This document shows, in pieces, positions 4,856 to 14,537 of a stretch of 38,571 nucleotides of DNA. Position 1 is the stretch's first letter; each line of letters opens with the position of its first letter. The notes below the pieces were generated by a model. The model saw only the letters and a list, made by a program, of their open reading frames with translations. It did not search any database and was not told the DNA's origin. The position numbers and the translations under genes were made by a program. The stretch spans positions 1-38,571 of IMG/VR virus record IMGVR_UViG_3300030372_004948, one strand, 5' to 3'. This stretch comes from a virus (lineage: Duplodnaviria; Caudoviricetes).

Positions 4856-5191
4856 GTGACGGACGACCTACTAGCCCAACTCGTTGACGCTGGTGGTATC
4901 GGTCTGCTCGCAGGCTTTCTTATCTGGCAGCACATTGGCATGCAGAAGCGCCTGGACGGCCTGGTGGCCTCGTTCCAAGAGCAAGTCGATAAGATCAATG
5001 AGTCATACGACGAGCGCATTGAGAAGATGCGTGAGCGCTACGACCTGGTCATCGAAAGCATCAGGTCTGAGTGCAAGGAAGACATCGACCGTGTCACCGA
5101 CCAGCGCGACTCGATACAGGCGGAGCTCGCCATCCTGATTCAGGATATGGGGCGCAGGGTGGACACGCTTGTGAGCAAGCTGTCTGACTAG
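4856..5191 (+). CDS. Holin-like (BhlA/UviB-type) or i-spanin-like membrane protein
   Basis: Single N-terminal TM segment (LVDAGGIGLLAGFLIWQ) followed by a charged coiled coil; in the lysis cassette. Confidence 0.6.
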   Translation: MTDDLLAQLVDAGGIGLLAGFLIWQHIGMQKRLDGLVASFQEQVDKINESYDERIEKMRERYDLVIESIRSECKEDIDRVTDQRDSIQAELAILIQDMGRRVDTLVSKLSD

Positions 5192-5763
5192 TCCCTGAGC
5201 GCGGCTCTGCGCCACCTTTTAAGCACCTTCATACCCTTGGGCGATGTCCCGCTACACCTGGGCTCACCGGCCCTGTCAGGGCGTCTCCAGAAGGGGCCTC
5301 TGTTGATGCGTATCCAGGCGAGCTTCCACCTGTCCCGCACCTTGGGGCAGTAGCGATGCACCGTGCGCTCGGTTGTGACCAGCCTGCCAAGGAATACGTG
5401 CGCGCTGGCGACTGGGTCGTTGCGGTCATGGATGAACTGCCTAGCCCATGGCCACAGCTGAAGCAACCCCACCGCCTTGCCGTTGTCACCGATGGCGCGA
5501 GGGTTGAAGCGTGACTCGTGCGCCGCCTTTGCCAGCACCATGCCGCGTAGGTGTTTGGGGATGCCGGCTAGCACCTCGACGTGTAGAAGGTCCCGAGCCA
5601 TGTGCTCAGTAGCCCCTAGCCTAACGGCCTGGTCGACGTAGTGCTCAATCAGCACCTGCTCTTGAGTGGTGCAGCAGTCTGGGCACCGCTCGCAGTTGTC
5701 TGCGATGTAGGCAGAATGCCAGCTGCCGATTAGCAGCATGGCAGATGTGATGATTGCGCTCAT
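5188..5763 (-). CDS. Lytic transglycosylase (SLT domain) with N-terminal signal-like segment
   Basis: AHESRFNPRAIGDNGKAVGLLQL matches the SLT catalytic ES...GLxQ motifs. Confidence 0.82.
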   Translation of the reverse strand: MSAIITSAMLLIGSWHSAYIADNCERCPDCCTTQEQVLIEHYVDQAVRLGATEHMARDLLHVEVLAGIPKHLRGMVLAKAAHESRFNPRAIGDNGKAVGLLQLWPWARQFIHDRNDPVASAHVFLGRLVTTERTVHRYCPKVRDRWKLAWIRINRGPFWRRPDRAGEPRCSGTSPKGMKVLKRWRRAALRD

Positions 5764-5774
5764 AAGACCTCATT

Positions 5775-5820
5775 AAAAAAGCCCCGGCAACGCGGGAGGA
5801 TAGATCCGCGCTGCCGAGGC
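5775..5820 (-). terminator. Rho-independent terminator after ssb
   Basis: 15-bp stem GCCUCGGCAGCGCGG/CCGCGUUGCCGGGGC with G-U pairs on the minus strand, followed by U6. Confidence 0.85.
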
Positions 5821-5851
5821 CAACTGGGGCTAGACCACTAGCACCCCGACA
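5775..5851 (-). ncRNA. Candidate 3'-UTR-derived antisense sRNA (two hairpins, loops UGGU and AUCUAUCCUC)
   Basis: Hairpin 5826-5847 and terminator loop 5796-5805 are complementary (9-12 nt) to leaders of several early genes. Confidence 0.45.
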
Positions 5852-6256
5852 TTAGAAGGGGATGTCGTCGTCGTTGTCAAAGGGTTGGTTGACCTGAGAC
5901 GCCGGAGCTCCAGCAACCTGACCGCCGTAGCCACCGCTGCTCTTGGTGCGCGCCGTGAGCTTCACCGACGCCTTGCTGACGTTGTTGAACACGCCCTCAC
6001 CCTGACGAGGGGCTTGGTCGTACTCACCGACAACGGTGACGGCGGTGCCACGTTGGGCTTTGTTCATGATCCAGGCCATCTGGCTCTCGGCCCACACGCT
6101 GACGCGGAAGAAGACCGGGCGCTCGGCCCGCTCCCTCCTGTCGTAGCGGCCAACAGCCACGGTGAACTCGACAAACGCCTTGCCGTTGGACGTGCTCTTC
6201 TGCTCCGGGTCCGACGTCAGGTTGCCAGTGATTGTGATGTTGCAGATATCAGACAT
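5852..6256 (-). CDS. ssb: Single-stranded DNA-binding protein
   Basis: NITITGNLTSDPE OB-fold start, FFRVSVW, Gly-rich linker, C-terminal DDDIPF; likely start ATG 6256. Confidence 0.93.
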   Translation of the reverse strand: MSDICNITITGNLTSDPEQKSTSNGKAFVEFTVAVGRYDRRERAERPVFFRVSVWAESQMAWIMNKAQRGTAVTVVGEYDQAPRQGEGVFNNVSKASVKLTARTKSSGGYGGQVAGAPASQVNQPFDNDDDIPF

Positions 6257-6443
6257 GTGACTGCTCCTGTTTGTTGATGAAGTCCTCGACCAGTGACCGG
6301 ACAAACTTGCTCCGGTCTACGTCCTGGGCGAAGGGGTCAGAGTTGCGCCTGCCAGCGTTGACAGACTTGATAGCGCCGTCGAGCTTCGCGATGAAGTCCT
6401 CGGTGACGCGGATATGAAGCACCGTGCGCTTAGGCGTTTCCAT
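6249..6443 (-). CDS. Small ribbon-helix-helix-like DNA-binding protein
   Basis: VLHIRVTEDFIAKLD...DRSKFVRSLVEDF fits the RHH pattern; overlaps both neighbours. Confidence 0.6.
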   Translation of the reverse strand: METPKRTVLHIRVTEDFIAKLDGAIKSVNAGRRNSDPFAQDVDRSKFVRSLVEDFINKQEQSHV

Positions 6444-7125
6444 TCTCAATCCTCCATGCGTCGAAGTCCTGACGCGCTGCGTGGCCTTTGTGTAAGAGCG
6501 CGCCGACCAGACGGTCAGCCTCGTTCTTGGGCATCTCGGAGAGCTTGGGCTGCCCCTTGCTGATGCGCCAGGTGTTGACCATGTTGTAGTCGATGTTGGC
6601 AGCTTCGAGGGTGGGGAACATCCCCTTCATCTTGCCGGCCTTGAAGTCAGGGCTGTGGTTGGCCCGGCGCTTTGCGTCGGCCTCCTTCTTGCGCCACCCC
6701 TTCTTGGTCTGGCCCTCGTGGCCGGTTGATGTCATGGCCCCGTTGCCGTCGTCGTCCTGCACAGCAGGGATGCCGAGGATGGCAGCGATGCAGTAGCGTT
6801 TGGTGTAGCTCATGCCTGAGCCAAACCCGTGCGCGTTCTGACGGTCGGCCAGCACCCTCATTCTCGAGACCAGCTTCTCCCCACTAGTGTGGGCGAGTAT
6901 GGTGATCATCATGTCTCCGTCCATGATGTGAGTGAAGGATAGGCCGAAGCTGTGCGCGCCCTGCGCCGCTTCGAGCACGCTTTCGTAGGATGCAAAGCGC
7001 CCGAAGTTGCTCTTGCTATCCTCGGTGGCCCTCGGCTTGGTCGCTTGGAACTCAGCGAGCGCCTTAAAGAGTTCAGGGCCGCCAAGTCCGACGGCTGCTG
7101 TTGGTGTAGTGGTCTGCTCAGTCAT
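6430..7125 (-). CDS. ERF-family single-strand annealing protein
   Basis: LFKALAEFQ, FASYESVL, ILAHTSGE, GSGMSYTKRYCIAAILGIP..DDDG signature. Confidence 0.92.
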   Translation of the reverse strand: MTEQTTTPTAAVGLGGPELFKALAEFQATKPRATEDSKSNFGRFASYESVLEAAQGAHSFGLSFTHIMDGDMMITILAHTSGEKLVSRMRVLADRQNAHGFGSGMSYTKRYCIAAILGIPAVQDDDGNGAMTSTGHEGQTKKGWRKKEADAKRRANHSPDFKAGKMKGMFPTLEAANIDYNMVNTWRISKGQPKLSEMPKNEADRLVGALLHKGHAARQDFDAWRIENGNA

Positions 7126-7297
7126 TGGTCATCTCCAGTTTGAGCCCGAGGTCGTCGGGCTGGTTGTCGGTTAGCCACTTGGTAAGTGGCAGGTACACGG
7201 TGGTGTGCAGTGGATGGTCAGGGAAGTTGGCGCGCTGTCGCACCAGCGATACCCAGGCGGCGAGTTTGTGGGCCCATGTCATGATGTCGGCACCCAT
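7118..7297 (-). CDS. Hypothetical protein (59 aa, MGADIMTWAHKLAAW...); not in the ORF track
   Basis: Fills the gap between gp157 and erf; ATG directly follows the gp157 stop and its end overlaps the erf start. Confidence 0.6.
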   Translation of the reverse strand: MGADIMTWAHKLAAWVSLVRQRANFPDHPLHTTVYLPLTKWLTDNQPDDLGLKLEMTND

Positions 7298-7852
7298 CTA
7301 CTTGCCCTCCACGACGATGAGGTCCTCGCTCTTGGTGACGAGGATGCCCAGCTGTCCGAGCTCCTCGACGGTGGACGAGCCGTTCCTGATGGCCCGCTTG
7401 ACCATAGCCCTGTTGACCCTGACCGGGGCCTCGAGAAAGTCGCTGGGCTCCCACGTCTCGCCGAGTTCGACGGAGTAGGACGTGCGCTTGTCGAGCCGCA
7501 CGTGCCCGTCCTCGCAGTCGACCTTGCTCTCCCCAGGGTTCGCCTCTTGGTGCGCCAAGAGCAGGTTCTTCATGTAGCCCCGCAGCCTGTCAGCGTCGCC
7601 GGTCCTGCGCTTGGCGATGGTTGCGATGCGTGCAGCCTCGGCCTTGAGGGTCTCGGCCTCGGCCAGCAGTCTGGTGCGCACCGCCCGTATCGACTGCAGC
7701 TTCGACTTGATGTCGGCGTTTGTCGCCTCCACCTCCGCGAGCCAGGCGTCGTATGCCTGCTCATTCACCTCACCATTGGCGTCGGTGATGTCCATAAGCG
7801 CAGCAGCAAGCCGCCGCGCACGTGTTGATATCTCAAAGGACGTGCCGCCCAT
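7298..7852 (-). CDS. Siphovirus Gp157 family protein
   Basis: Coiled coil LKAEAARI..KRR..RLRGYM and C-terminal VNRAMVKRAIRNG; beside erf; GGAGG SD. Confidence 0.8.
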   Translation of the reverse strand: MGGTSFEISTRARRLAAALMDITDANGEVNEQAYDAWLAEVEATNADIKSKLQSIRAVRTRLLAEAETLKAEAARIATIAKRRTGDADRLRGYMKNLLLAHQEANPGESKVDCEDGHVRLDKRTSYSVELGETWEPSDFLEAPVRVNRAMVKRAIRNGSSTVEELGQLGILVTKSEDLIVVEGK

Positions 7853-7867
7853 CGAATCCTCCAGTGG

Positions 7868-7932
7868 TCTAGCTCATCAGTGCCGGGAGACCATCCCCCG
7901 ACAGACGCCCCGGCGAGGGCGTTTCGCCTAGA
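7868..7932 (-). ncRNA. Hammerhead ribozyme, type II
   Basis: Minus strand UCUAGGC-GAAA-CGCCCU(CGCC)GGGGCG-UC^UGUCGGGGGA(UGG)UCUCCCGGCA-CUGAUGA-GCUAGA has the full catalytic core and three stems; predicted cleavage between 7904 and 7903. Confidence 0.9.
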
Positions 7933-8245
7933 AGGGTATGTCGTTGATTGACTCTTCGATCTCCGACGCAGTGGCACCCTTGGGCGTCTCACGCGGGCGC
8001 TCGATGTCAGCGATGACAGTCTCAAGGCCCTCAAGTGTTGTGGCAATTTGATTGAAGCTCGCGGGGGCAACGATGTGCATGTCCCTGCTTCTCCAGCCTG
8101 ACAAGAAGGCCTTGACCTCTCTACGTGCTGCCTTCAGCAACGGCAGGAGTTCTTGCCCCATGGCGTAGCGACCGAAGTCCTCACCAAGGTCGAAGTCATC
8201 GACGCCAGTGGCCCCGTCGCCCAGCAGTGTTTTAATCCCTGACAT
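7928..8245 (-). CDS. Hypothetical protein with SSB-like acidic C-terminus (...INDIPF)
   Basis: ORF in the leftward operon with a G-rich SD, overlapping the upstream gene. Confidence 0.75.
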   Translation of the reverse strand: MSGIKTLLGDGATGVDDFDLGEDFGRYAMGQELLPLLKAARREVKAFLSGWRSRDMHIVAPASFNQIATTLEGLETVIADIERPRETPKGATASEIEESINDIPF

Positions 8246-8414
8246 AGCTACCCCCTATCGCTTCCGCGAGGTCTGGAAAGTGGTCTACCGGCGGCTTCCC
8301 GCCGAGCTGTTGAAGCAGTGTGCCCAGGGCATCCACTGCGAACTCTACGTCCCCGGCAATGTCGAGGTCGGCCATGATGTCGGCGATGCGTGCCGCGATC
8401 TCTGCGTTGCTCAT
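8232..8414 (-). CDS. Hypothetical protein (60 aa, MSNAEIAARIAD...)
   Basis: ATGA overlap with the upstream gene gives a likely start at 8414. Confidence 0.65.
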   Translation of the reverse strand: MSNAEIAARIADIMADLDIAGDVEFAVDALGTLLQQLGGKPPVDHFPDLAEAIGGSYVRD

Positions 8415-8761
8415 GACTGCACCCGCGCCGGCTTGGTCACGTGCTTGCTGTGCGCGTGCCATGACTTGCCGGTCTCATCGCATACAACACGGTGAACCCG
8501 TTTCACGTAATGGTCGCCGGCCCTGACGGTGCCGTCCTTGTGGTCCCGCCGGCATACGTGGCGCGTCGTGCTGACGTGCTTGGTCCACTCCTTGTCCCAG
8601 AAGTCGTACTCGTACCCGCAGTGGGCGAGCCTGTCGAAGAGGTTGGTGTCCTCTTCGATGTTGAACCCCTCCATGGGGTGCTCAGGCTCCGGTGGTGAGC
8701 AATCGCCGTATCCGGGTAGGGTTCTGCCGCCAATCGGTCGGCCTTGGTATGTCCATCCCAT
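8411..8761 (-). CDS. Hypothetical protein (116 aa)
   Basis: AGGAG SD with a promoter directly upstream. Confidence 0.75.
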   Translation of the reverse strand: MGWTYQGRPIGGRTLPGYGDCSPPEPEHPMEGFNIEEDTNLFDRLAHCGYEYDFWDKEWTKHVSTTRHVCRRDHKDGTVRAGDHYVKRVHRVVCDETGKSWHAHSKHVTKPARVQS

Positions 8762-8791
8762 GATGGTCTCCTGTGTAGTGGTCTGGGGTCG

Positions 8792-8819
8792 AGTGTAGTC
8801 ACCGTCTGCCTGCTGTCAA
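8792..8819 (-). promoter_or_regulatory. Sigma70-like leftward promoter
   Basis: TTGACA-N16-TACACT in the intergenic gap with T-rich sequence upstream. Confidence 0.65.
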
Positions 8820-8864
8820 TACAAAAGACGGGCGGCGACCACACAAACGGGCAAGAAAAGTAAA

Positions 8865-9647
8865 TTAGGCGAGCGCTCTAGCGCTTAGCTCGCGGAATGC
8901 GAGCGCTGCTTGGGCGGGCACGACGCCGTTGCCGAGTAAGCGTATGCGGTCCACCCGATCGGGAGCCCCATGAGAGCCTCCACAAACTCCGGGTTGAGGA
9001 CCACCGGCACGGGTCCACCGTCGCCATCCTTCGGTATCGTCGGGACTTGGCGGGAACGCATGGCATCCGTTAGGCTGGTGCCGGGGTGCATCACCCCCGT
9101 TTTGGTCGTGTGACGGCCAGAGCTCCGACAGTCCGAGACCGCTGGAGTAGGCCAAGAGGAAGAGCCGGTTTCGACGGTGCGGTGCTCCAGCGTCGGACGC
9201 TTTGAAACAACCCCACTCTGCATCGTACCCCATAGCGGCAAGGTCTCGGAGCATGACGGAGAGCCCCCGCTTGCGGAGTCCGGGCACGTTTTCGAGGAAG
9301 ACGATCGGGGCTTGGCACTCCCCGATAATGCGAGCGACATCTGCCCAGATCCACCGCTCGTCGTCGGTGTGCTTGCGCTTTCCGGCGGTTGAGAAGGGCT
9401 GACAAGGCGGCCCCCCGACGAGCATATCAGGGCGCCAACCTCTGCCGTCGAAGGTGGTGACGTCAGTCCAGATAGGAGCCTGAGCCAAGGCGCCCGCTTC
9501 CATCTGCGCGACCATGTTTGCGATGACGAAGGCTTCCCTCTCCACCATACAGACCGCGCGAGCGCCTCCGATAGCTGCGGCGACACCTCTCTCGAGCCCG
9601 CCGTATCCGCTGAAGAGGCTGAGGATTGTGGTGGTACGTGTGCCCAT
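8865..9647 (-). CDS. DNA (cytosine-5) methyltransferase, alpha-like chain (motifs I-VIII and X)
   Basis: SLFSGYGG (I), GGPPCQPFS (IV), LENV (VI), PHRRNRLF (VIII), LLGNGVVP (X); likely start ATG 9647. Confidence 0.9.
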   Translation of the reverse strand: MGTRTTTILSLFSGYGGLERGVAAAIGGARAVCMVEREAFVIANMVAQMEAGALAQAPIWTDVTTFDGRGWRPDMLVGGPPCQPFSTAGKRKHTDDERWIWADVARIIGECQAPIVFLENVPGLRKRGLSVMLRDLAAMGYDAEWGCFKASDAGAPHRRNRLFLLAYSSGLGLSELWPSHDQNGGDAPRHQPNGCHAFPPSPDDTEGWRRWTRAGGPQPGVCGGSHGAPDRVDRIRLLGNGVVPAQAALAFRELSARALA

Positions 9648-9652
9648 GACAT
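8885..9652 (-). CDS. Nested alternative-frame C5-MTase beta-like chain (motif IX); start 9652 or 9340
   Basis: Second frame open over almost the whole gene, containing WPTP and LNPEFVEALMGLPIGWT, the motif IX missing from the main frame. Confidence 0.7.
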   Translation of the reverse strand: MSWAHVPPQSSASSADTAGSREVSPQLSEALARSVWWRGKPSSSQTWSRRWKRAPWLRLLSGLTSPPSTAEVGALICSSGGRLVSPSQPPESASTPTTSGGSGQMSLALSGSAKPRSSSSKTCPDSASGGSPSCSETLPLWGTMQSGVVSKRPTLEHRTVETGSSSWPTPAVSDCRSSGRHTTKTGVMHPGTSLTDAMRSRQVPTIPKDGDGGPVPVVLNPEFVEALMGLPIGWTAYAYSATASCPPKQRSHSAS

Positions 9653-9891
9653 TAGTCCCCCTCTGTGGTGGTGATGTTGATAGCGTCAATGACCCCTTCA
9701 AGAGTCGGTCGGAGCATGGAGCATAGCCCAGGCGCGTGGAGTTCAGCCACGCTCCACGACCCCGCCAAGGCGTGGCCACGGTTGAAGTGAACCGAGACGG
9801 GATCGCCCGGCACGTGTTGGCGCACCGCTGCAACGTCTGAAGCCCTGAAGGCGAGCGTCTGGCCGTGTTTTGTGGTGATGGTGATCAGCAT
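9652..9891 (-). CDS. Hypothetical protein (79 aa)
   Basis: GAGGAGG SD; tightly packed in the operon. Confidence 0.7.
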   Translation of the reverse strand: MLITITTKHGQTLAFRASDVAAVRQHVPGDPVSVHFNRGHALAGSWSVAELHAPGLCSMLRPTLEGVIDAINITTTEGD

Positions 9892-9894
9892 GGT

Positions 9895-10359
9895 CTAGCC
9901 CTCCTCTGTGGTGGCTTTGGTGATGGTCTCGGCTATGAACGCACGCAGGCGCTCAGGGTCGAGGTCGCCCGTGTCGGGGTCGATGAACCTGTCCCTGTCG
10001 TGCCCCTGCTGAACTCCGGTCCAACCTGCGCCGTCGGCAGTGTACAGGCTCACAAACTCGGCAGCCCATTTGAGCGCGTGGAGTAGGTCCGGCGCTGCGT
10101 TTTCTAGTCTGGCGGACGCGTCGTCATTCACATGCAGCTCAAGCGATTCTACTGAGAACTCAAAGGAATCGTCAGTCCAGTCGCAGTACCCGTCTTCAAT
10201 CTCTACTTCTGCACTATCAACGCAATCTTGAAGCGTTGTCAGATCCTTAGCCATTCGTTCTGCCTTGCGCTCCCAGCCATCACCCCCGGATAGGGAGATG
10301 AAGTCCGCTTTGACTGAGATTTCGCCGTAGACTGGGATGGTAAAAGTGTGCTCTAGCAT
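9895..10359 (-). CDS. Acidic hypothetical protein (154 aa; contains the AAPDLLHAL motif common in phage early proteins)
   Basis: GAGGA SD; operon position. Confidence 0.75.
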   Translation of the reverse strand: MLEHTFTIPVYGEISVKADFISLSGGDGWERKAERMAKDLTTLQDCVDSAEVEIEDGYCDWTDDSFEFSVESLELHVNDDASARLENAAPDLLHALKWAAEFVSLYTADGAGWTGVQQGHDRDRFIDPDTGDLDPERLRAFIAETITKATTEEG

Positions 10360-10380
10360 TGCTCTATCCTCTGAAAAACC

Positions 10381-10444
10381 GCGCAGAATCGCACGCCTGG
10401 CGCCCCCTCCACCGGAGAGAGCACCCGCGCGTGAGAGCCTACGC
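10381..10444 (-). other. Long imperfect intergenic RNA hairpin (RNase III-like site or attenuator)
   Basis: Interrupted stem with core GGUGCUCUCUCC/GGAGGGGGCGCC and several G-U pairs, starting at the upstream stop codon, followed by GGUUUUU. Confidence 0.55.
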
Positions 10445-11479
10445 AGCTACCGCAAAATCGCTCGCGATAGCTTCGCTCAGCTGCTCCTGTGTGGTCGCCT
10501 TCACTCGGAGCCCTACCACAAAGGGCCCCTTCTTAGGTGCGCGCGTGAACCACAGATCGTCAATATCACCGTCGATCACGTCGTACCCTTCCCAAGTAGC
10601 AGGCAAGGGCAGCTTGTTCCCGTCTTCATCGCGTGCCTTATCGGGCACGTCGAAGACCACGCAGACGCCATGCCCTTGGGCTAGCATCTTGAGCGTGAGC
10701 GCTGTGCGTCCATCCTTTCGAGAGTAGACTCGTCGCACAAAGTCGTCGCGTCGCATGTTGGACGTGATTGCAGTGTAGTCGTAGAAGTCGACGGTGGATG
10801 AGTGTCGCTGTGCTAGGTAGCCGGCTAACTCCGCGCAATCTTGTGCCACGTTCGCACGAAAGGCGAGAAGCGCTCCTTTGCGCGCAGCGCTCATCCACAA
10901 TCGCTCGATCTCGCGATTCAAGAGGGTAAGAAACACGTCCAGATTGGCGAGCATGGCCAGTGTTCGCCCCACTCGGGCGATCTCCGATGAACTGAGGCGA
11001 CCTTGGCCGGTCTGCGAACCGACGCATCCGAAGACGCATGCCGGCGTGGCACCACGGCATGCGTTCCAATCGCCTTGCACGTAGGCGCTAGCCTCGCGCG
11101 CCGTCGCCATCGTGAGACCACGGTTAACAAAGCCCGATCGCTCTTTGGATGCCTTGTCCAGTTTGGTCTGGCTGGAGGTGTGGATCTGGCGCGTACCGTG
11201 GAGGATGAGCGCTGCCTGCCACACTACCGCTTCGCGTTTGGTCATCCGGCATTGGTGCGACATCGTGACGCGCCAGCGCGGCCCGATGAAATCGGGAGCG
11301 CTCTGAATGCCGTTGCGCGAGTGAATGCGCATCAATGCATCTTCGATCGCCTCTTGGACGTCGGACAAGAGAGGAAAGGGGGCGAGATGGGCGACTAGCT
11401 CATCATAGGCCTTTTGAACGTAGGTCGTGGGGGTGAGGTACTTGTTAAACGTGGTCTGGTGTGGTGTAAGCTTGCTCAT
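10439..11479 (-). CDS. GP88-like protein (Cys-cluster, radical-SAM-like phage family)
   Basis: CRGATPACVFGC, FRANVAQD, DFYDYT, VIDGDIDDLWF, VVGLRVK match my recollection of the GP88 family. Confidence 0.75.
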   Translation of the reverse strand: MSKLTPHQTTFNKYLTPTTYVQKAYDELVAHLAPFPLLSDVQEAIEDALMRIHSRNGIQSAPDFIGPRWRVTMSHQCRMTKREAVVWQAALILHGTRQIHTSSQTKLDKASKERSGFVNRGLTMATAREASAYVQGDWNACRGATPACVFGCVGSQTGQGRLSSSEIARVGRTLAMLANLDVFLTLLNREIERLWMSAARKGALLAFRANVAQDCAELAGYLAQRHSSTVDFYDYTAITSNMRRDDFVRRVYSRKDGRTALTLKMLAQGHGVCVVFDVPDKARDEDGNKLPLPATWEGYDVIDGDIDDLWFTRAPKKGPFVVGLRVKATTQEQLSEAIASDFAVAA

Positions 11480-11528
11480 TGTGGTCTATCCTCTGCGCAT
11501 CCCTGCGCTGCTAGTGGTCTGTGGTCGT

Positions 11529-11587
11529 GCATAGGCGCACGGTGTAGAGCCCGAGCGATGCTCAGGCGCTACCCCTTGCCTCTATGC
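11529..11587 (-). other. Long imperfect intergenic RNA hairpin (RNase III-like site)
   Basis: Nested stems GCAUAG/CUAUGC, GCA/UGC, GUAG/CUAC, GCCUGAGC/GCUCGGGC starting at the upstream stop codon. Confidence 0.55.
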
Positions 11588-12091
11588 TGCCCAATTGCGC
11601 TTGGTCGGTATGAAGTGACCAATCGGCCATTCCTGCACCGTCTTATGGACGCGCCCTGTCGATGTGCTGACGCGCCGCACTTTGATGAGGCCTGAGCGCT
11701 TCGAGACACCTTCGTAGACGTAGTGCCGCCAACCACACGAGCGAGCCCATCCCTTGTCCCGGTATAGGCTCTGACCCTTGGCGTACGCGCCATTCTCAGC
11801 GATAGCCTCTGACAGCGCGAGCAGGTCGTCTGTTGAGGCTATGATCTCTGCCCCACCATCACCACAACCACATATAAACGTGGTCTCGTTGTGGTCGTAT
11901 CCACGCGACCTGCTGTCGTCGTCGACTTCGACCCAGTAACCGAGCGCTTCAAGGTCTCGGATGATGCGCCAGGGAAGGCGCGCGCTTGCTCTGATCCCGA
12001 TTGTGCTTTGTGGCCAGTGTGGAAGCCGGTCGTCTCTGATCTCAATGCCGCGACGTGCGATCTCGATTGCAATGTTGTGCAAGGTCTTCAT
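11582..12091 (-). CDS. Hypothetical protein (169 aa)
   Basis: GGAGA SD; operon position. Confidence 0.75.
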   Translation of the reverse strand: MKTLHNIAIEIARRGIEIRDDRLPHWPQSTIGIRASARLPWRIIRDLEALGYWVEVDDDSRSRGYDHNETTFICGCGDGGAEIIASTDDLLALSEAIAENGAYAKGQSLYRDKGWARSCGWRHYVYEGVSKRSGLIKVRRVSTSTGRVHKTVQEWPIGHFIPTKRNWAA

Positions 12092-12115
12092 GGTCTGTTC
12101 TCCGTGGTGGTGGTG

Positions 12116-12427
12116 CTAGTAAGAGGGTCCGATAAGCCAAACAAGGCGCTGCAGCTGACTGTCATCCGAAAGGCACGGGACACGGTCGACGCCGTCTTCT
12201 CTCAACGCCTCGCCAATGCAGACGGCGCTGATCGTCAAGACACCGTCTGAGTCGAGGTATGAGAGCAGGTGCTCAGATACGTGGTATCGGTCTCCAATCC
12301 ATTGGAGCGCTTCGACCTCAGCGTCAGTGGGACGGTAAAGCATCCCGTATGAGTAGACTGAGCACTCCATGACGCCTTGGAGGTCGTCTGTGCTCATCGC
12401 TGCGATTGTCTTGCTTGTGTGAATCAT
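12116..12427 (-). CDS. Hypothetical protein (103 aa, MIHTSKTIAAM...), first gene of the leftward operon
   Basis: AGGAG SD before ATG 12427; promoter upstream. Confidence 0.75.
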   Translation of the reverse strand: MIHTSKTIAAMSTDDLQGVMECSVYSYGMLYRPTDAEVEALQWIGDRYHVSEHLLSYLDSDGVLTISAVCIGEALREDGVDRVPCLSDDSQLQRLVWLIGPSY

Positions 12428-12453
12428 GGTCTCTCCTGATTGGTTGTGAGACC

Positions 12454-12483
12454 ACAGTAAATCCTGCGACAACACAGCGTCAA
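12454..12483 (-). promoter_or_regulatory. Sigma70-like leftward early promoter
   Basis: TTGACG-N18-TACTGT with T-rich upstream sequence at the head of the operon. Confidence 0.5.
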
Positions 12484-12536
12484 CACAATAACCAAGGAAA
12501 AGTGAAAATGGAGACCAGTGCAACGTTCACGGTTCG

Positions 12537-12565
12537 TCGTCAAAATGGCGGAACAGTGGTAGACT
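12537..12565 (+). promoter_or_regulatory. Possible rightward promoter with extended -10
   Basis: TCGTCA-N17-TAGACT with a TGn extension. Confidence 0.4.
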
Positions 12566-12591
12566 CTGAGCAATCGTGATCAGGGAGCAGT

Positions 12592-12981
12592 GTGACGTTT
12601 ATGCAGGTCAGGCCAGAAGACGTGAGAGATTACGGTTCAAGCGCCGCGATCGTGCTCTCAGTGTTGCGTTCACAGGGCTGCACAGCGTCGATGCCAGTGC
12701 TGGTTCAATACGCTGCGATAGGGCGCCTGTGTGGACTCGACCAGCGCTCAGTCAGGCGGGGTATCGACAGGCTCACTGAGGGCAAGGCTATCAGCGTCTC
12801 GCGGTATCGTCAGCAGCGCTCTCTGATGGTCAAGCTGAGACACTGCGCCGAGGTCGTGACCAGAACGGCAGCAGATGGACAGAACGTCACGACGCAAGTC
12901 GACGTCGAATCACTCGCTCAAGAATCCCCCCCATTAAGGCGATTAGACTCCGTAAGGTCGTTGCTTGACGCCCTTGGCTGA
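12592..12981 (+). CDS. Winged helix-turn-helix protein (replication-initiator-like N-terminal domain)
   Basis: AAIVLSVL...QYAAIGRLCGLDQRSVRRGIDRLTEGKAISV fits a wHTH; AGGGAG SD. Confidence 0.65.
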   Translation: MTFMQVRPEDVRDYGSSAAIVLSVLRSQGCTASMPVLVQYAAIGRLCGLDQRSVRRGIDRLTEGKAISVSRYRQQRSLMVKLRHCAEVVTRTAADGQNVTTQVDVESLAQESPPLRRLDSVRSLLDALG

Positions 12982-13740: not shown

Positions 13741-13793
13741 TTCAATATCGCGCAACATGGACCAAGACCACATGCACAAAGAGGATAGTGCTT

Positions 13794-14537
13794 ATGAGCG
13801 ACTCACCGGGTTCGGTGCGTTCTAAGATCGCAGCCTTACCACTTGACCTTGTCAGCCCAGTACGCGGCAGAGCAGACGCCTTTGGCGATGTTCTTCCTGT
13901 GTCTAGCCTTAAAGGACGCGCGCTTCTTCTTCATGCGCTCCGTCTCTCCGGCCTTAGGCTTCCCAGCGGTACTGGCGCCTTGCTCTCCGAACCGGATCGT
14001 CTTCAGTTTACCGTTGCAGTTGGCGACGACGATATGACTCTGCTCAGGATGCCCAGGCGTGCGCTTGGGTTTGCCTACTCCGCTGACTCCTGCGGCCTTG
14101 AGCTTCCGCTTAGCGGCGCTCTGCCGTTCTTTAGCCATCTACTCGTCACCCATAGAGTCGATGAGACCCTTGAGCTCCGCGTCGTAGGCTTTCCCTTCGT
14201 CGGTCTTGGGCTTCCAGGAATCGTACATGTTGACGAGCTTCTGCTTGATCTTGCCCTTGGCGACCTTCTTGCGCGCCTTGCTGCGTTCAGGGGAGGGTCC
14301 ACCGATGACGATGGTGAGTCCCATGGGTTTACCGTGCGGGTTATCGGAGTGCTTTTTCTTCCCGTAGTCCATTCAGCTCACCTTCTTCCTTGCTGCTTTC
14401 ATGCGTTGGTAGATGTGGTTGACCAGCGCGTAGTTCTTGTTAGAGCCGCGTTTCCCTGCGGCGTACTTGGCTTTACTCCAGAGCTTCTCATCCCGCTTGG
14501 TTTTGACCAGGTTGCTAGGCATCAGGAGTCCTCGTGA
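13794..14537 (+). CDS. Possible translated antisense ORF (247 aa) covering three minus-strand genes
   Basis: Promoter plus GAGGA SD 8 nt before the ATG; its TGA overlaps the MTase GTG; the protein has no recognisable features. Confidence 0.3.
   Translation: MSDSPGSVRSKIAALPLDLVSPVRGRADAFGDVLPVSSLKGRALLLHALRLSGLRLPSGTGALLSEPDRLQFTVAVGDDDMTLLRMPRRALGFAYSADSCGLELPLSGALPFFSHLLVTHRVDETLELRVVGFPFVGLGLPGIVHVDELLLDLALGDLLARLAAFRGGSTDDDGESHGFTVRVIGVLFLPVVHSAHLLPCCFHALVDVVDQRVVLVRAAFPCGVLGFTPELLIPLGFDQVARHQESS
13836..14138 (-). CDS. Small basic conserved phage protein (KPKRTP.HP..SH...IRFG...FKARH...SAAYWADKVKW family)
   Basis: Motif set I recognise from uncultured phage proteins; function unknown. 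Confidence 0.85.
   Translation of the reverse strand: MAKERQSAAKRKLKAAGVSGVGKPKRTPGHPEQSHIVVANCNGKLKTIRFGEQGASTAGKPKAGETERMKKKRASFKARHRKNIAKGVCSAAYWADKVKW
14139..14372 (-). CDS. Small basic hypothetical protein (77 aa)
   Basis: Abuts both neighbours with zero spacing. Confidence 0.75.
   Translation of the reverse strand: MDYGKKKHSDNPHGKPMGLTIVIGGPSPERSKARKKVAKGKIKQKLVNMYDSWKPKTDEGKAYDAELKGLIDSMGDE
14373..14522 (-). CDS. Small basic protein (49 aa, MPSNLVKTKRDEKLWSKAK...); not in the ORF track
   Basis: GAGGA SD, ATG at 14522, stop immediately followed by the next ATG. Confidence 0.75.
   Translation of the reverse strand: MPSNLVKTKRDEKLWSKAKYAAGKRGSNKNYALVNHIYQRMKAARKKVS

What the first reader, a model, noticed from the sequence alone, without database searches (positions are those of the whole stretch)
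7863..7932. Type II hammerhead ribozyme between an early gene and gp157, with a possible pseudoknot next to the RBS
Seen: intact core (CUGAUGA, GAAA, GUC cleavage triplet at 7906-7904), a 10-bp stem I, a 7-bp stem III, and a stem II with one bulge that contains the upstream UAG stop. The stem I apex UGGUC(U) can pair with (A)GACCA just 3' of stem II, directly before the GGAGG SD. Established: hammerheads occur in phage intergenic regions and type II forms often use such pseudoknots. Inference: cleavage releases a 5'-OH gp157-erf-RHH-ssb mRNA; terminating ribosomes or the candidate sRNA, which binds this same segment, could gate cleavage.
Basis: partly seen in the sequence, partly recalled or inferred. 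Interest (0 to 1): 0.85.

Follow-up and report, generated by a model that had tools for sequence, protein, structure and literature searches.

The report
Phage hammerhead overlapping an antisense target
This is a standard self-cutting hammerhead RNA inside a phage early operon, and its 3' strand is one of many start-site motifs that match a conserved small RNA at the operon's end, which likely pairs with them to damp translation and might also block the cut.

Summary
The hammerhead is real: Rfam RF02276, 61.8 bits, canonical core, cut predicted at 7904/7903, 93-97% identical in relatives while flanking genes are 64-80%. Type II form, loop I/3'-tail pseudoknot and phage intergenic location are all published (Perreault 2011), so the ribozyme alone is a new member of a known family. 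The pseudoknot does not covary (invariant). The unusual part lies around it. Its 3' strand (GCUAGACCAC) is one of 15 AGACCA sites in the early region (2.35 expected), clustered at start codons. A structured RNA after ssb (5775-5851) has two near-invariant loops complementary to these sites and to GAGGAUAGA. It pairs 13 bp with the ribozyme tail, covering stem II, the pseudoknot strand and the SD edge. Motif and RNA also occur in relatives without the hammerhead, so the ribozyme uses an independent start-site motif. Best reading: a processing ribozyme on a likely antisense-controlled operon. True gating of cleavage is possible (about 25%) but untested; there are no expression data.

The parts
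7863..7932 (-). Type II hammerhead ribozyme (Rfam RF02276)
   Evidence: 61.8 bits, full-length model match; 65-68 of 70 nt identical in 8 of 8 relatives compared
7922..7927 (-). Stem II 5' pairs (G7927, C7926 = C11.1) and GAAA (G12-A15.1)
   Evidence: sequence; invariant in alignment A3
7905..7922 (-). Stem III with variable tetraloop
7903..7906 (-). GUC triplet (7906-7904); scissile bond predicted between C7904 and U7903
   Evidence: sequence plus hammerhead consensus; not assayed
7881..7903 (-). Stem I: 7 core bp plus 3 apical bp that compete with the pseudoknot; loop UGGUCU 7893-7888
7872..7880 (-). CUGAUGA core and stem II 3' pairs (G10.1, C10.2); N7 is the only core base that varies (U/C)
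7861..7873 (-). 3' strand: pseudoknot partner AGACCA (7870-7865) and 13-nt site complementary to hairpin 1 of the post-ssb RNA
7850..7862 (-). SD GGAGG (7862-7858) and gp157 start codon
   Evidence: sequence
7928..8245 (-). Upstream 105-aa gene, no family match, ends in DIPF like an SSB tail; its stop codon lies in the stem II extension
7298..7852 (-). Siphovirus Gp157 / Mu Gam-like gene
   Evidence: PF05565 E 1.5e-9; phrog_253
7118..7297 (-). 59-aa conserved gene, no family match
6430..7125 (-). ERF ssDNA-annealing protein; AGACCAC site 10 nt into the gene
   Evidence: PF04404
6249..6443 (-).
5852..6256 (-). SSB
   Evidence: PF00436 E 3e-15
5775..5851 (-). Conserved two-hairpin RNA after ssb: hairpin 1 (5842-5829, loop UGGU), hairpin 2 (5821-5780, loop holding UCUAUCCUC, 5804-5796), U tail
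   Evidence: fold z -5.8; 7 of 21 pairs with changes on both sides in 12 rows; no Rfam match
8792..8819 (-). Sigma-70-like promoter candidate for the transcript that holds the ribozyme
   Evidence: 10 of 12 consensus; same site in L001, L006, L008, L010, L011, L013, a variant in L018, none found in L103 or L145
6705..12432 (-). AGACCA sites at 12432, 12096, 11886, 11520, 11487, 11457, 11169, 9929, 9896, 8784, 8769, 8286, 7870, 7115, 6710; 12 lie within -41..+22 of a start codon
13765..13788 (-). Second place with both antisense seeds (CUAUCCUC, GUGGUC) behind a small leftward gene cluster
   Evidence: both seeds kept in G006, only the first in G005; no stable fold

Best explanation
This is a canonical type II hammerhead that likely cuts the phage early transcript at 7904/7903, and its 3' strand is one copy of an operon-wide start-site motif that is predicted to be the target of a conserved antisense RNA encoded after ssb. 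Shown: the intact core, its conservation, the motif's enrichment at early start codons, the RNA's conserved structure and the complementarity. Inferred: (1) transcription from the site at 8819-8792 gives a ~3 kb RNA; (2) the ribozyme folds with stem I 7 bp, stem II 2 bp and a 6-bp loop I/tail pseudoknot and cleaves within about a minute, giving an ~880-nt 5' piece and an ~2,130-nt 5'-OH piece that starts with a hairpin, which would insulate and stabilise the gp157-erf-ssb (recombination) message; (3) the stable two-hairpin 3' end of that message accumulates and pairs through its UGGU and UCUAUCCUC loops with early ribosome-binding regions, a negative feedback on early translation; (4) at the ribozyme the same pairing competes with the pseudoknot. 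Because cleavage is fast and the RNA is made 2 kb downstream, it would act mostly on the cleaved product's ribosome-binding site, and only secondarily on cleavage of later transcripts.
For: Rfam 61.8 bits. Hammerhead in L001 and 11 of 17 further loci; six distinct core sequences in all; differences mainly at N7, loop III and the bulge, plus a two-base change at the base of stem I in 2 of 9 rows. Identity 93-97% vs 64-80% (upstream gene, 7 loci) and 73-77% (gp157, 8 loci). Pseudoknot needed for fast cleavage (k >1.2/min, 0.5 mM Mg) in a type II example (Perreault 2011, passages). AGACCA: 15 in 6,749 nt vs 2.35 +/- 1.58, 0 of 500 shuffles, top hexamer; AGACCAY near 7 of 14 early and 0 of 21 other starts, Fisher p 5e-4; 8 of 13 sites within -30..+18 (p 9e-6), 4 of 9 after removing AUG-overlapping sites and the ribozyme (p 0.009). 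Seed energy with RNA opening cost: early mean -7.6 (n 13) vs other -4.0 (n 23), p 0.005; difference beats 120 of 120 shuffled RNAs. RNA stems covary, loop cores GUGGU and UAUCCU invariant in 12 of 12 rows; about 39 G-U cells against 1 C-A cell fix the strand as the mRNA strand (my count from the table). AGACCAY in 34 of 87 start regions of 7 loci with hairpin 1 vs 4 of 67 in 4 loci without. In L018 the RNA has C-to-U in the seed, and two starts read GUUAAACCAU, a form seen in no other of 11 loci. Cofold: 13-bp duplex, net -7 to -14 kcal/mol, stem II lost.
Against: No cleavage, expression or end data of any kind. The pseudoknot shows no covariation, and without it the nearest-neighbour model prefers other folds: stem II pair probability 0.01-0.04 once the SD is present, and the MFE with the start codon (-37.0) beats the hammerhead fold (-28.0). 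Early-site binding alone is only modestly better than for shuffled RNAs (6 of 120 reach it). L145 has 4 of 12 AGACCAY starts but no hairpin 1 after ssb, and its 72%-complete record holds no such hairpin by pattern. Distant relatives have other repeated start motifs (GAGAUGAGACG, GCUAGAACC, GCUAGACAA) with no clear match to their own post-ssb RNA, so repeated start motifs arise in this group without an antisense partner. The incompatible form GCUAGACAAU also occurs in L008 and L018. The L018 covariation is one lineage. The loci are related, so the counts are not independent; motif and windows were chosen after seeing the data. Starts of 7 of 14 early genes, ssb among them, lack the motif.
Confidence: 0.55

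Rival explanations
1. Plain processing ribozyme. The AGACCA repeats are gene-cassette boundary repeats or CA-rich translation enhancers spread by duplication and ERF-type recombination, and the match to the post-ssb hairpin is incidental; that hairpin is only a terminator or a leader of the next gene.
For: Distant relatives carry several unrelated repeated start motifs without a matching RNA; L145 has the motif without hairpin 1; GAGGAGGGCUAG also encodes EEG-stop of the upstream gene; ACA-type motifs enhance translation (Yang 2014, abstract); processing of phage polycistronic RNA is the published proposal.
Against: Two separate loops stay near-invariant while stems covary, and both match start regions; GAGGAUA is enriched (3 vs 0.23, 1 of 500 shuffles) while the 16S-type extension GAGGUGA is not; 34 of 87 vs 4 of 67; L018 and L031-type RNAs lack a U tail yet keep both loops.
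Confidence: 0.25
2. One reading: the stem II extension (UCUA/UAGA), which holds the upstream stop codon, locks out the pseudoknot; a terminating ribosome opens it, so cleavage is coupled to translation of the upstream gene.
For: Ribozyme always starts at the upstream stop codon; the extension is predicted at 0.8-0.9 probability in a transcript ending at 7863 and adds 3.3 kcal/mol; the bulged base varies G/A with UAG/UAA; an added stem II pair slowed a pseudoknot hammerhead.
Against: Both strands are explained by other constraints (Phe-stop codons; start-site motif); no compensatory change; a ribosome at the stop would also cover GCGAAAC and unfold the core (footprint size recalled); extension probability falls to 0.02 once the SD is transcribed.
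Confidence: 0.1
3. The start-site motif is bound by a phage protein (a translational repressor on RNA or a stoperator-like site on DNA), and the post-ssb element is a decoy or operator.
For: Asymmetric, oriented repeats at starts of non-structural genes resemble Cluster K start-associated sequences, for which a protein or RNA partner was left open (Pope 2011, passages); a small gene of possible DNA-binding type sits in the operon; hairpin 1 is a palindrome with a 4-nt spacer.
Against: The element is the complement, not a copy, of the motif on the mRNA strand, and G-U pairs show it works on that strand; motif variants GCUAGGCCAU, GCUAGGCUAU, GUUAAACCAU keep RNA pairing by wobble; the small gene has no family match.
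Confidence: 0.06
4. The ribozyme is misfolded or inactive in its natural context, and the sequence is kept for another reason, for example as a 5' UTR structure.
For: Competing folds are more stable in the model without pseudoknot; folding z-score only -1.0; some hammerhead-like candidates were inactive in Perreault 2011.
Against: All catalytic bases are invariant while N7 and loop III vary; the start-codon-trapping fold is specific to the window and not the MFE in 7 of 7 relatives.
Confidence: 0.04

Closest known systems
Type II hammerhead ribozymes, Rfam RF02276 (Perreault et al. 2011, PMC3088659; passages read)
   Same: Core, permutation, 2-bp stem II, loop I/3'-tail pseudoknot (family consensus has UGG and CCA at the same places), phage intergenic position, proposed processing of polycistronic RNA
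   Different: Single copy, not a tandem set; the tail is an operon-wide start-site motif with a complementary RNA in the same operon, which I did not find described
PK hammerhead variant (Zhan et al. 2024, PMC11300833; passages read)
   Same: A 6-bp pseudoknot in a hammerhead
   Different: There the pseudoknot replaces helix II; here helix II (G10.1-C11.1) is kept and the pseudoknot is a tertiary contact
Start-associated sequences of Cluster K mycobacteriophages (Pope et al. 2011, PMC3203893; passages read)
   Same: Oriented asymmetric repeat at ribosome-binding sites of non-structural genes
   Different: Other sequence, shorter core; here a candidate complementary RNA is encoded in the same operon, whereas the partner was unknown there
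P1/P7 C4 antisense RNA (passages in PMC8198154) and P4 CI RNA (recalled)
   Same: Small structured RNA made from the same strand and operon as its targets
   Different: No Rfam match of the 5775-5851 RNA to any family; it lies at the 3' end and matches about ten start regions, one of them a ribozyme
GcvB-type multi-target sRNA (Yang et al. 2014, PMC3879156; abstract read) and RNAIII-type anti-SD loops (recalled)
   Same: GU-rich seed against CA-rich start regions; C-rich loop against SD
   Different: Phage RNA aimed at its own early genes
glmS ribozyme (Weinberg et al. 2019, PMC6765202, section 13 read) and synthetic RiboJ-type insulators (recalled)
   Same: Self-cleavage just 5' of a ribosome-binding site
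   Different: No metabolite; the proposed control is an RNA; the product would be stabilised, not degraded (inferred)

Membership tests
Hammerhead type II (RF02276) | Score above the Rfam gathering threshold over the whole model | tested here: met
   61.8 vs 37 bits, positions 1-66 of 66
Hammerhead type II (RF02276) | Core CUGANGA, GAAA, NUH triplet, G10.1-C11.1, A15.1-U16.1 | tested here: met
   sequence; kept in 9 of 9 rows, N7 variable
Hammerhead type II (RF02276) | Stems I and III closed by loops, stem II open | tested here: met
Hammerhead type II (RF02276) | Loop I / 3'-tail pseudoknot | tested here: inconclusive
   6 Watson-Crick pairs possible in 9 of 9 rows but never vary; energy of the pseudoknot not computable here
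Hammerhead type II (RF02276) | Mg-dependent site-specific self-cleavage | not testable with these tools
   needs an assay
PK hammerhead variant (helix II replaced) | Helix II replaced by a pseudoknot from an extra stem-loop | tested here: not met
   helix II present, no extra stem-loop
Trans-acting antisense sRNA (C4 / GcvB-like mode) for 5775-5851 | Conserved structure with exposed, conserved seed loops | tested here: met
Trans-acting antisense sRNA (C4 / GcvB-like mode) for 5775-5851 | Complementary sites enriched at target start regions | tested here: met
Trans-acting antisense sRNA (C4 / GcvB-like mode) for 5775-5851 | Seed and targets covary | tested here: inconclusive
   one lineage (L018) fits; L145 is an exception; distant lineage shows no cognate advantage
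Trans-acting antisense sRNA (C4 / GcvB-like mode) for 5775-5851 | Expressed as a discrete RNA and represses targets | not testable with these tools
   needs infection RNA data and reporters
Known Rfam sRNA families | Match to a described family | tested here: not met
   no match at 5775-5851 up to E 5
Cluster K start-associated sequence | 13-bp Cluster K consensus 3-7 nt before the start | tested here: not met
   motif here differs in sequence and spreads from -41 to +22; analogy only

The most novel reading that the evidence does not exclude
A natural hammerhead switched by a trans-acting phage RNA: the post-ssb RNA presents the same UGGUCU as the ribozyme's own loop I, steals the pseudoknot strand and stem II, and so turns off both cleavage and translation, as one arm of an RNA-only feedback that shuts down some ten early genes through a shared start-site code. 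It would also supply a mechanism for start-associated repeats in phages.
Probability: 0.25. Interest if true: 0.88.

Novelty: new variant of a known kind. Interest (0 to 1): 0.56.

Why it matters
What bacterial and phage self-cleaving ribozymes do is described as largely unknown apart from glmS (Weinberg 2019, section 13), and the partner of phage start-associated repeats was left open (Pope 2011). This locus offers a small, fully in vitro testable case for both: a 70-nt ribozyme, a 77-nt RNA and defined target sites with natural variants. If only the ribozyme is real, it is one more RF02276 member and of low interest.

Tried and rejected
No RNA holder listed for 5700-8900; the one same-sample RNA run laid 0 contigs: no information on expression. 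No gp157 relative in genome contigs or among 50,697 phage records; four distant ERF hits in genome contigs were not examined, so no host is assigned. L003 matched the hammerhead pattern by chance: no stems, other context. Most of the 95 loci are chance; those with the real element are L088, L103, L110, L120, L128, L130. L138, L139, L142 and the unrelated loci did not hold the element. L015 lacks the ribozyme only because its contig does not reach the junction. Idea that cleavage unmasks the SD: no consistent gain in SD accessibility in window plus 7 relatives (pseudoknot not modelled). Start-codon-trapping fold: window-specific. Idea that the post-ssb RNA is a decayed hammerhead stem I: the resembling flank varies among relatives; model R1 hits the ribozyme region only at E 0.068, in part through the shared DIPF-stop. 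Possible covariation in L147 and L226 noticed by eye: not supported by the cross matrix. Plain duplex energies over 61-nt start regions did not separate early from other genes (p 0.09 and 0.34); only the seed model with opening cost did. One search used a misregistered pseudoknot and is superseded. No second ribozyme in the window. Earlier findings of the scan: none returned.

Full report
Setting. The window is a complete 38,571-nt phage record with direct terminal repeats, with terminase, portal and capsid genes on the plus strand and a leftward early region from about 12,600 to 5,775. No cultured relative or host was found.

The observation. Rfam finds one match over threshold in the window: Hammerhead_II at 7863-7929 minus, 61.8 bits. 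The core is canonical and the cut is predicted at C7904/U7903. The Rfam consensus has a 2-bp stem II and UGG/CCA at these places, and Perreault 2011 (passages) shows that this pseudoknot gives fast cleavage and that extra stem pairs slow it. I therefore infer an active fold of 7 + 2 + 6 bp. The model without pseudoknot prefers other folds once the SD or start codon is present, which is a caution but is expected when the pseudoknot energy is missing.

Conservation. The ribozyme is in L001 and 11 of 17 further loci; the six misses are L015, whose contig does not reach the junction, and five distant loci with gp157 at 47-51%. None of 7 plus 6 more distant loci has it. There are six distinct core sequences. 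Identity to the window is 65-68 of 70 nt against 64-80% and 73-77% in the flanking genes. Catalytic bases never change, N7 and loop III do. The pseudoknot pairs never vary, so they are untested by covariation. The ribozyme always follows the upstream gene's stop; in four loci another gene follows it instead of gp157. A promoter-like site at 8819-8792 is conserved in six close relatives.

What is known. Type II hammerheads, their pseudoknot and their place between phage genes, with processing of polycistronic RNA as the proposed role, are in Perreault 2011 and Weinberg 2019 (passages and section 13). The link of ribozymes to recombination and SSB genes in Weinberg 2015 is recalled; the paper is not held. 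So the ribozyme alone is a new member of a known family.

The wider pattern. The tail hexamer AGACCA occurs 15 times on the minus strand of 5852-12600 against 2.35 in shuffles (0 of 500) and is the top hexamer there; AGACCAY lies near 7 of 14 early starts and 0 of 21 other starts. Depending on the window, 8 or 12 of 13 sites are at starts, and the excess holds after removing sites that overlap AUG and the ribozyme (4 of 9, p 0.009 for -30..+18). These windows were chosen after seeing the sites. Relatives without the hammerhead have AGACCA at the same junction in L017, L018, L019, L145 and L143, but not in L146 or L147, so the motif does not depend on the ribozyme; whether the ribozyme was gained or lost is not settled.

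The RNA after ssb. 5775-5851 folds into two hairpins (z -5.8). In 12 aligned rows the stems covary (7 of 21 pairs) while the loop cores GUGGU and UAUCCU are invariant; G-U pairs place it on the mRNA strand. Loop 1 with its stem is the complement of GCUAGACCAC; loop 2 is the complement of GAGGAUAGA, found at the starts at 11479 and 10359, an SD extension that 16S rRNA would not read (GAGGAUA 3 vs 0.23 expected). A seed model with opening cost gives -7.6 for 13 early and -4.0 for 23 other starts (p 0.005; difference beyond 120 of 120 shuffled RNAs, early mean alone reached by 6 of 120; some of the 23 heuristic starts are probably not real genes). Seven loci with hairpin 1 have AGACCAY at 34 of 87 starts, four loci without it at 4 of 67, all in L145. 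L018 has a seed C-to-U change and the unique start form GUUAAACCAU twice. All 7 related loci with both ribozyme and RNA keep a 10-bp perfect match. Cofolding gives a 13-bp duplex that removes stem II and reaches the first two SD bases, net -7 to -14 kcal/mol without counting the pseudoknot.

Against. L145 keeps the motif without hairpin 1, and pattern searches of four incomplete records found no such hairpin. Distant relatives have other repeated start motifs and a homologous hairpin 2 with another loop, with no cognate binding advantage. So repeated start motifs are a trait of this phage group and may come from cassette duplication. The loci are related and few. There is no expression evidence either way.

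Mechanism and odds. Active ribozyme about 0.9. Antisense control of early starts about 0.55-0.6. Real gating of cleavage in vivo about 0.25, because cleavage should be fast and the RNA comes from the far end of the same transcript; action on the cleaved product's ribosome-binding site is more likely. That 5'-OH ends with a terminal hairpin resist decay is recalled textbook knowledge. Ribosome gating through the stop codon about 0.1.

Novelty. Eight full-text searches listed no paper on a natural hammerhead controlled by a phage antisense RNA or on this motif-RNA pair; one search returned 0 papers for hammerhead, phage and gp157. I read listings only for most hits, part 2 of 6 of a review on phage sRNAs (PMC12197685), passages of PMC5737381, PMC12192606, PMC11300833, PMC8198154 and PMC3203893 and the abstract of PMC3879156. 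The library lacks most subscription papers, and I did not see supplements; Dataset S1 of Perreault 2011 and the motif lists of Weinberg 2017 may hold this hammerhead or the RNA. Verdict: new variant of a known kind, interest 0.56.

Noticed in passing
window 8865-9833 and 8885-9652 (minus): DNA methyltransferase region read in two long overlapping frames with starts 5 nt apart (9652 and 9647); same arrangement in L018, L103, L145. Recalls two-subunit C5 methyltransferases with an alternative-frame subunit (recalled). Only the 255-aa frame was scanned (phrog_1008).
   Followed up: partly
window 7928-8245 and 5852-6256 (minus): The upstream 105-aa protein and SSB both end in DIPF; the acidic IPF/ITF/VNF tail is kept in distant relatives, so the small protein may mimic the SSB tail.
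   Followed up: partly
window 13765-13788 (minus): Second site with both antisense seeds behind three small basic-protein genes (about 13836-14520); both seeds kept in G006, one in G005.
   Followed up: partly
window 12425-12455 (minus): Local UGGUCUC/GAGACCA hairpin could hide the ribosome-binding site of the first early gene; the 5' arm differs in L008 and L010.
   Followed up: partly
window 5188-5763 (minus): SLT-domain gene directly behind the RNA, more conserved (78-96%) than SSB, facing the lysis genes; L018 and L031-type loci lack the U tail, so read-through or leader control is possible.
   Followed up: partly
L145, L146, L147, L226 after ssb; L228 early region: Distant relatives have a homologous hairpin with a larger loop holding CUCAUC-like bases and their own repeated start motifs; L228 repeats a 20-nt start motif three times.
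   Followed up: partly
window 12592-12981 (plus): 129-aa ORF opposite the early region, with DNA homology in L008 and L010; no family match; possible regulator.
   Followed up: no
L053:3426-3530 and L126: Unrelated phages with a long hairpin after a DLPF/DMPF-stop whose loop also shows UAUCCUCC; L056 has a similar anti-SD hairpin.
   Followed up: no
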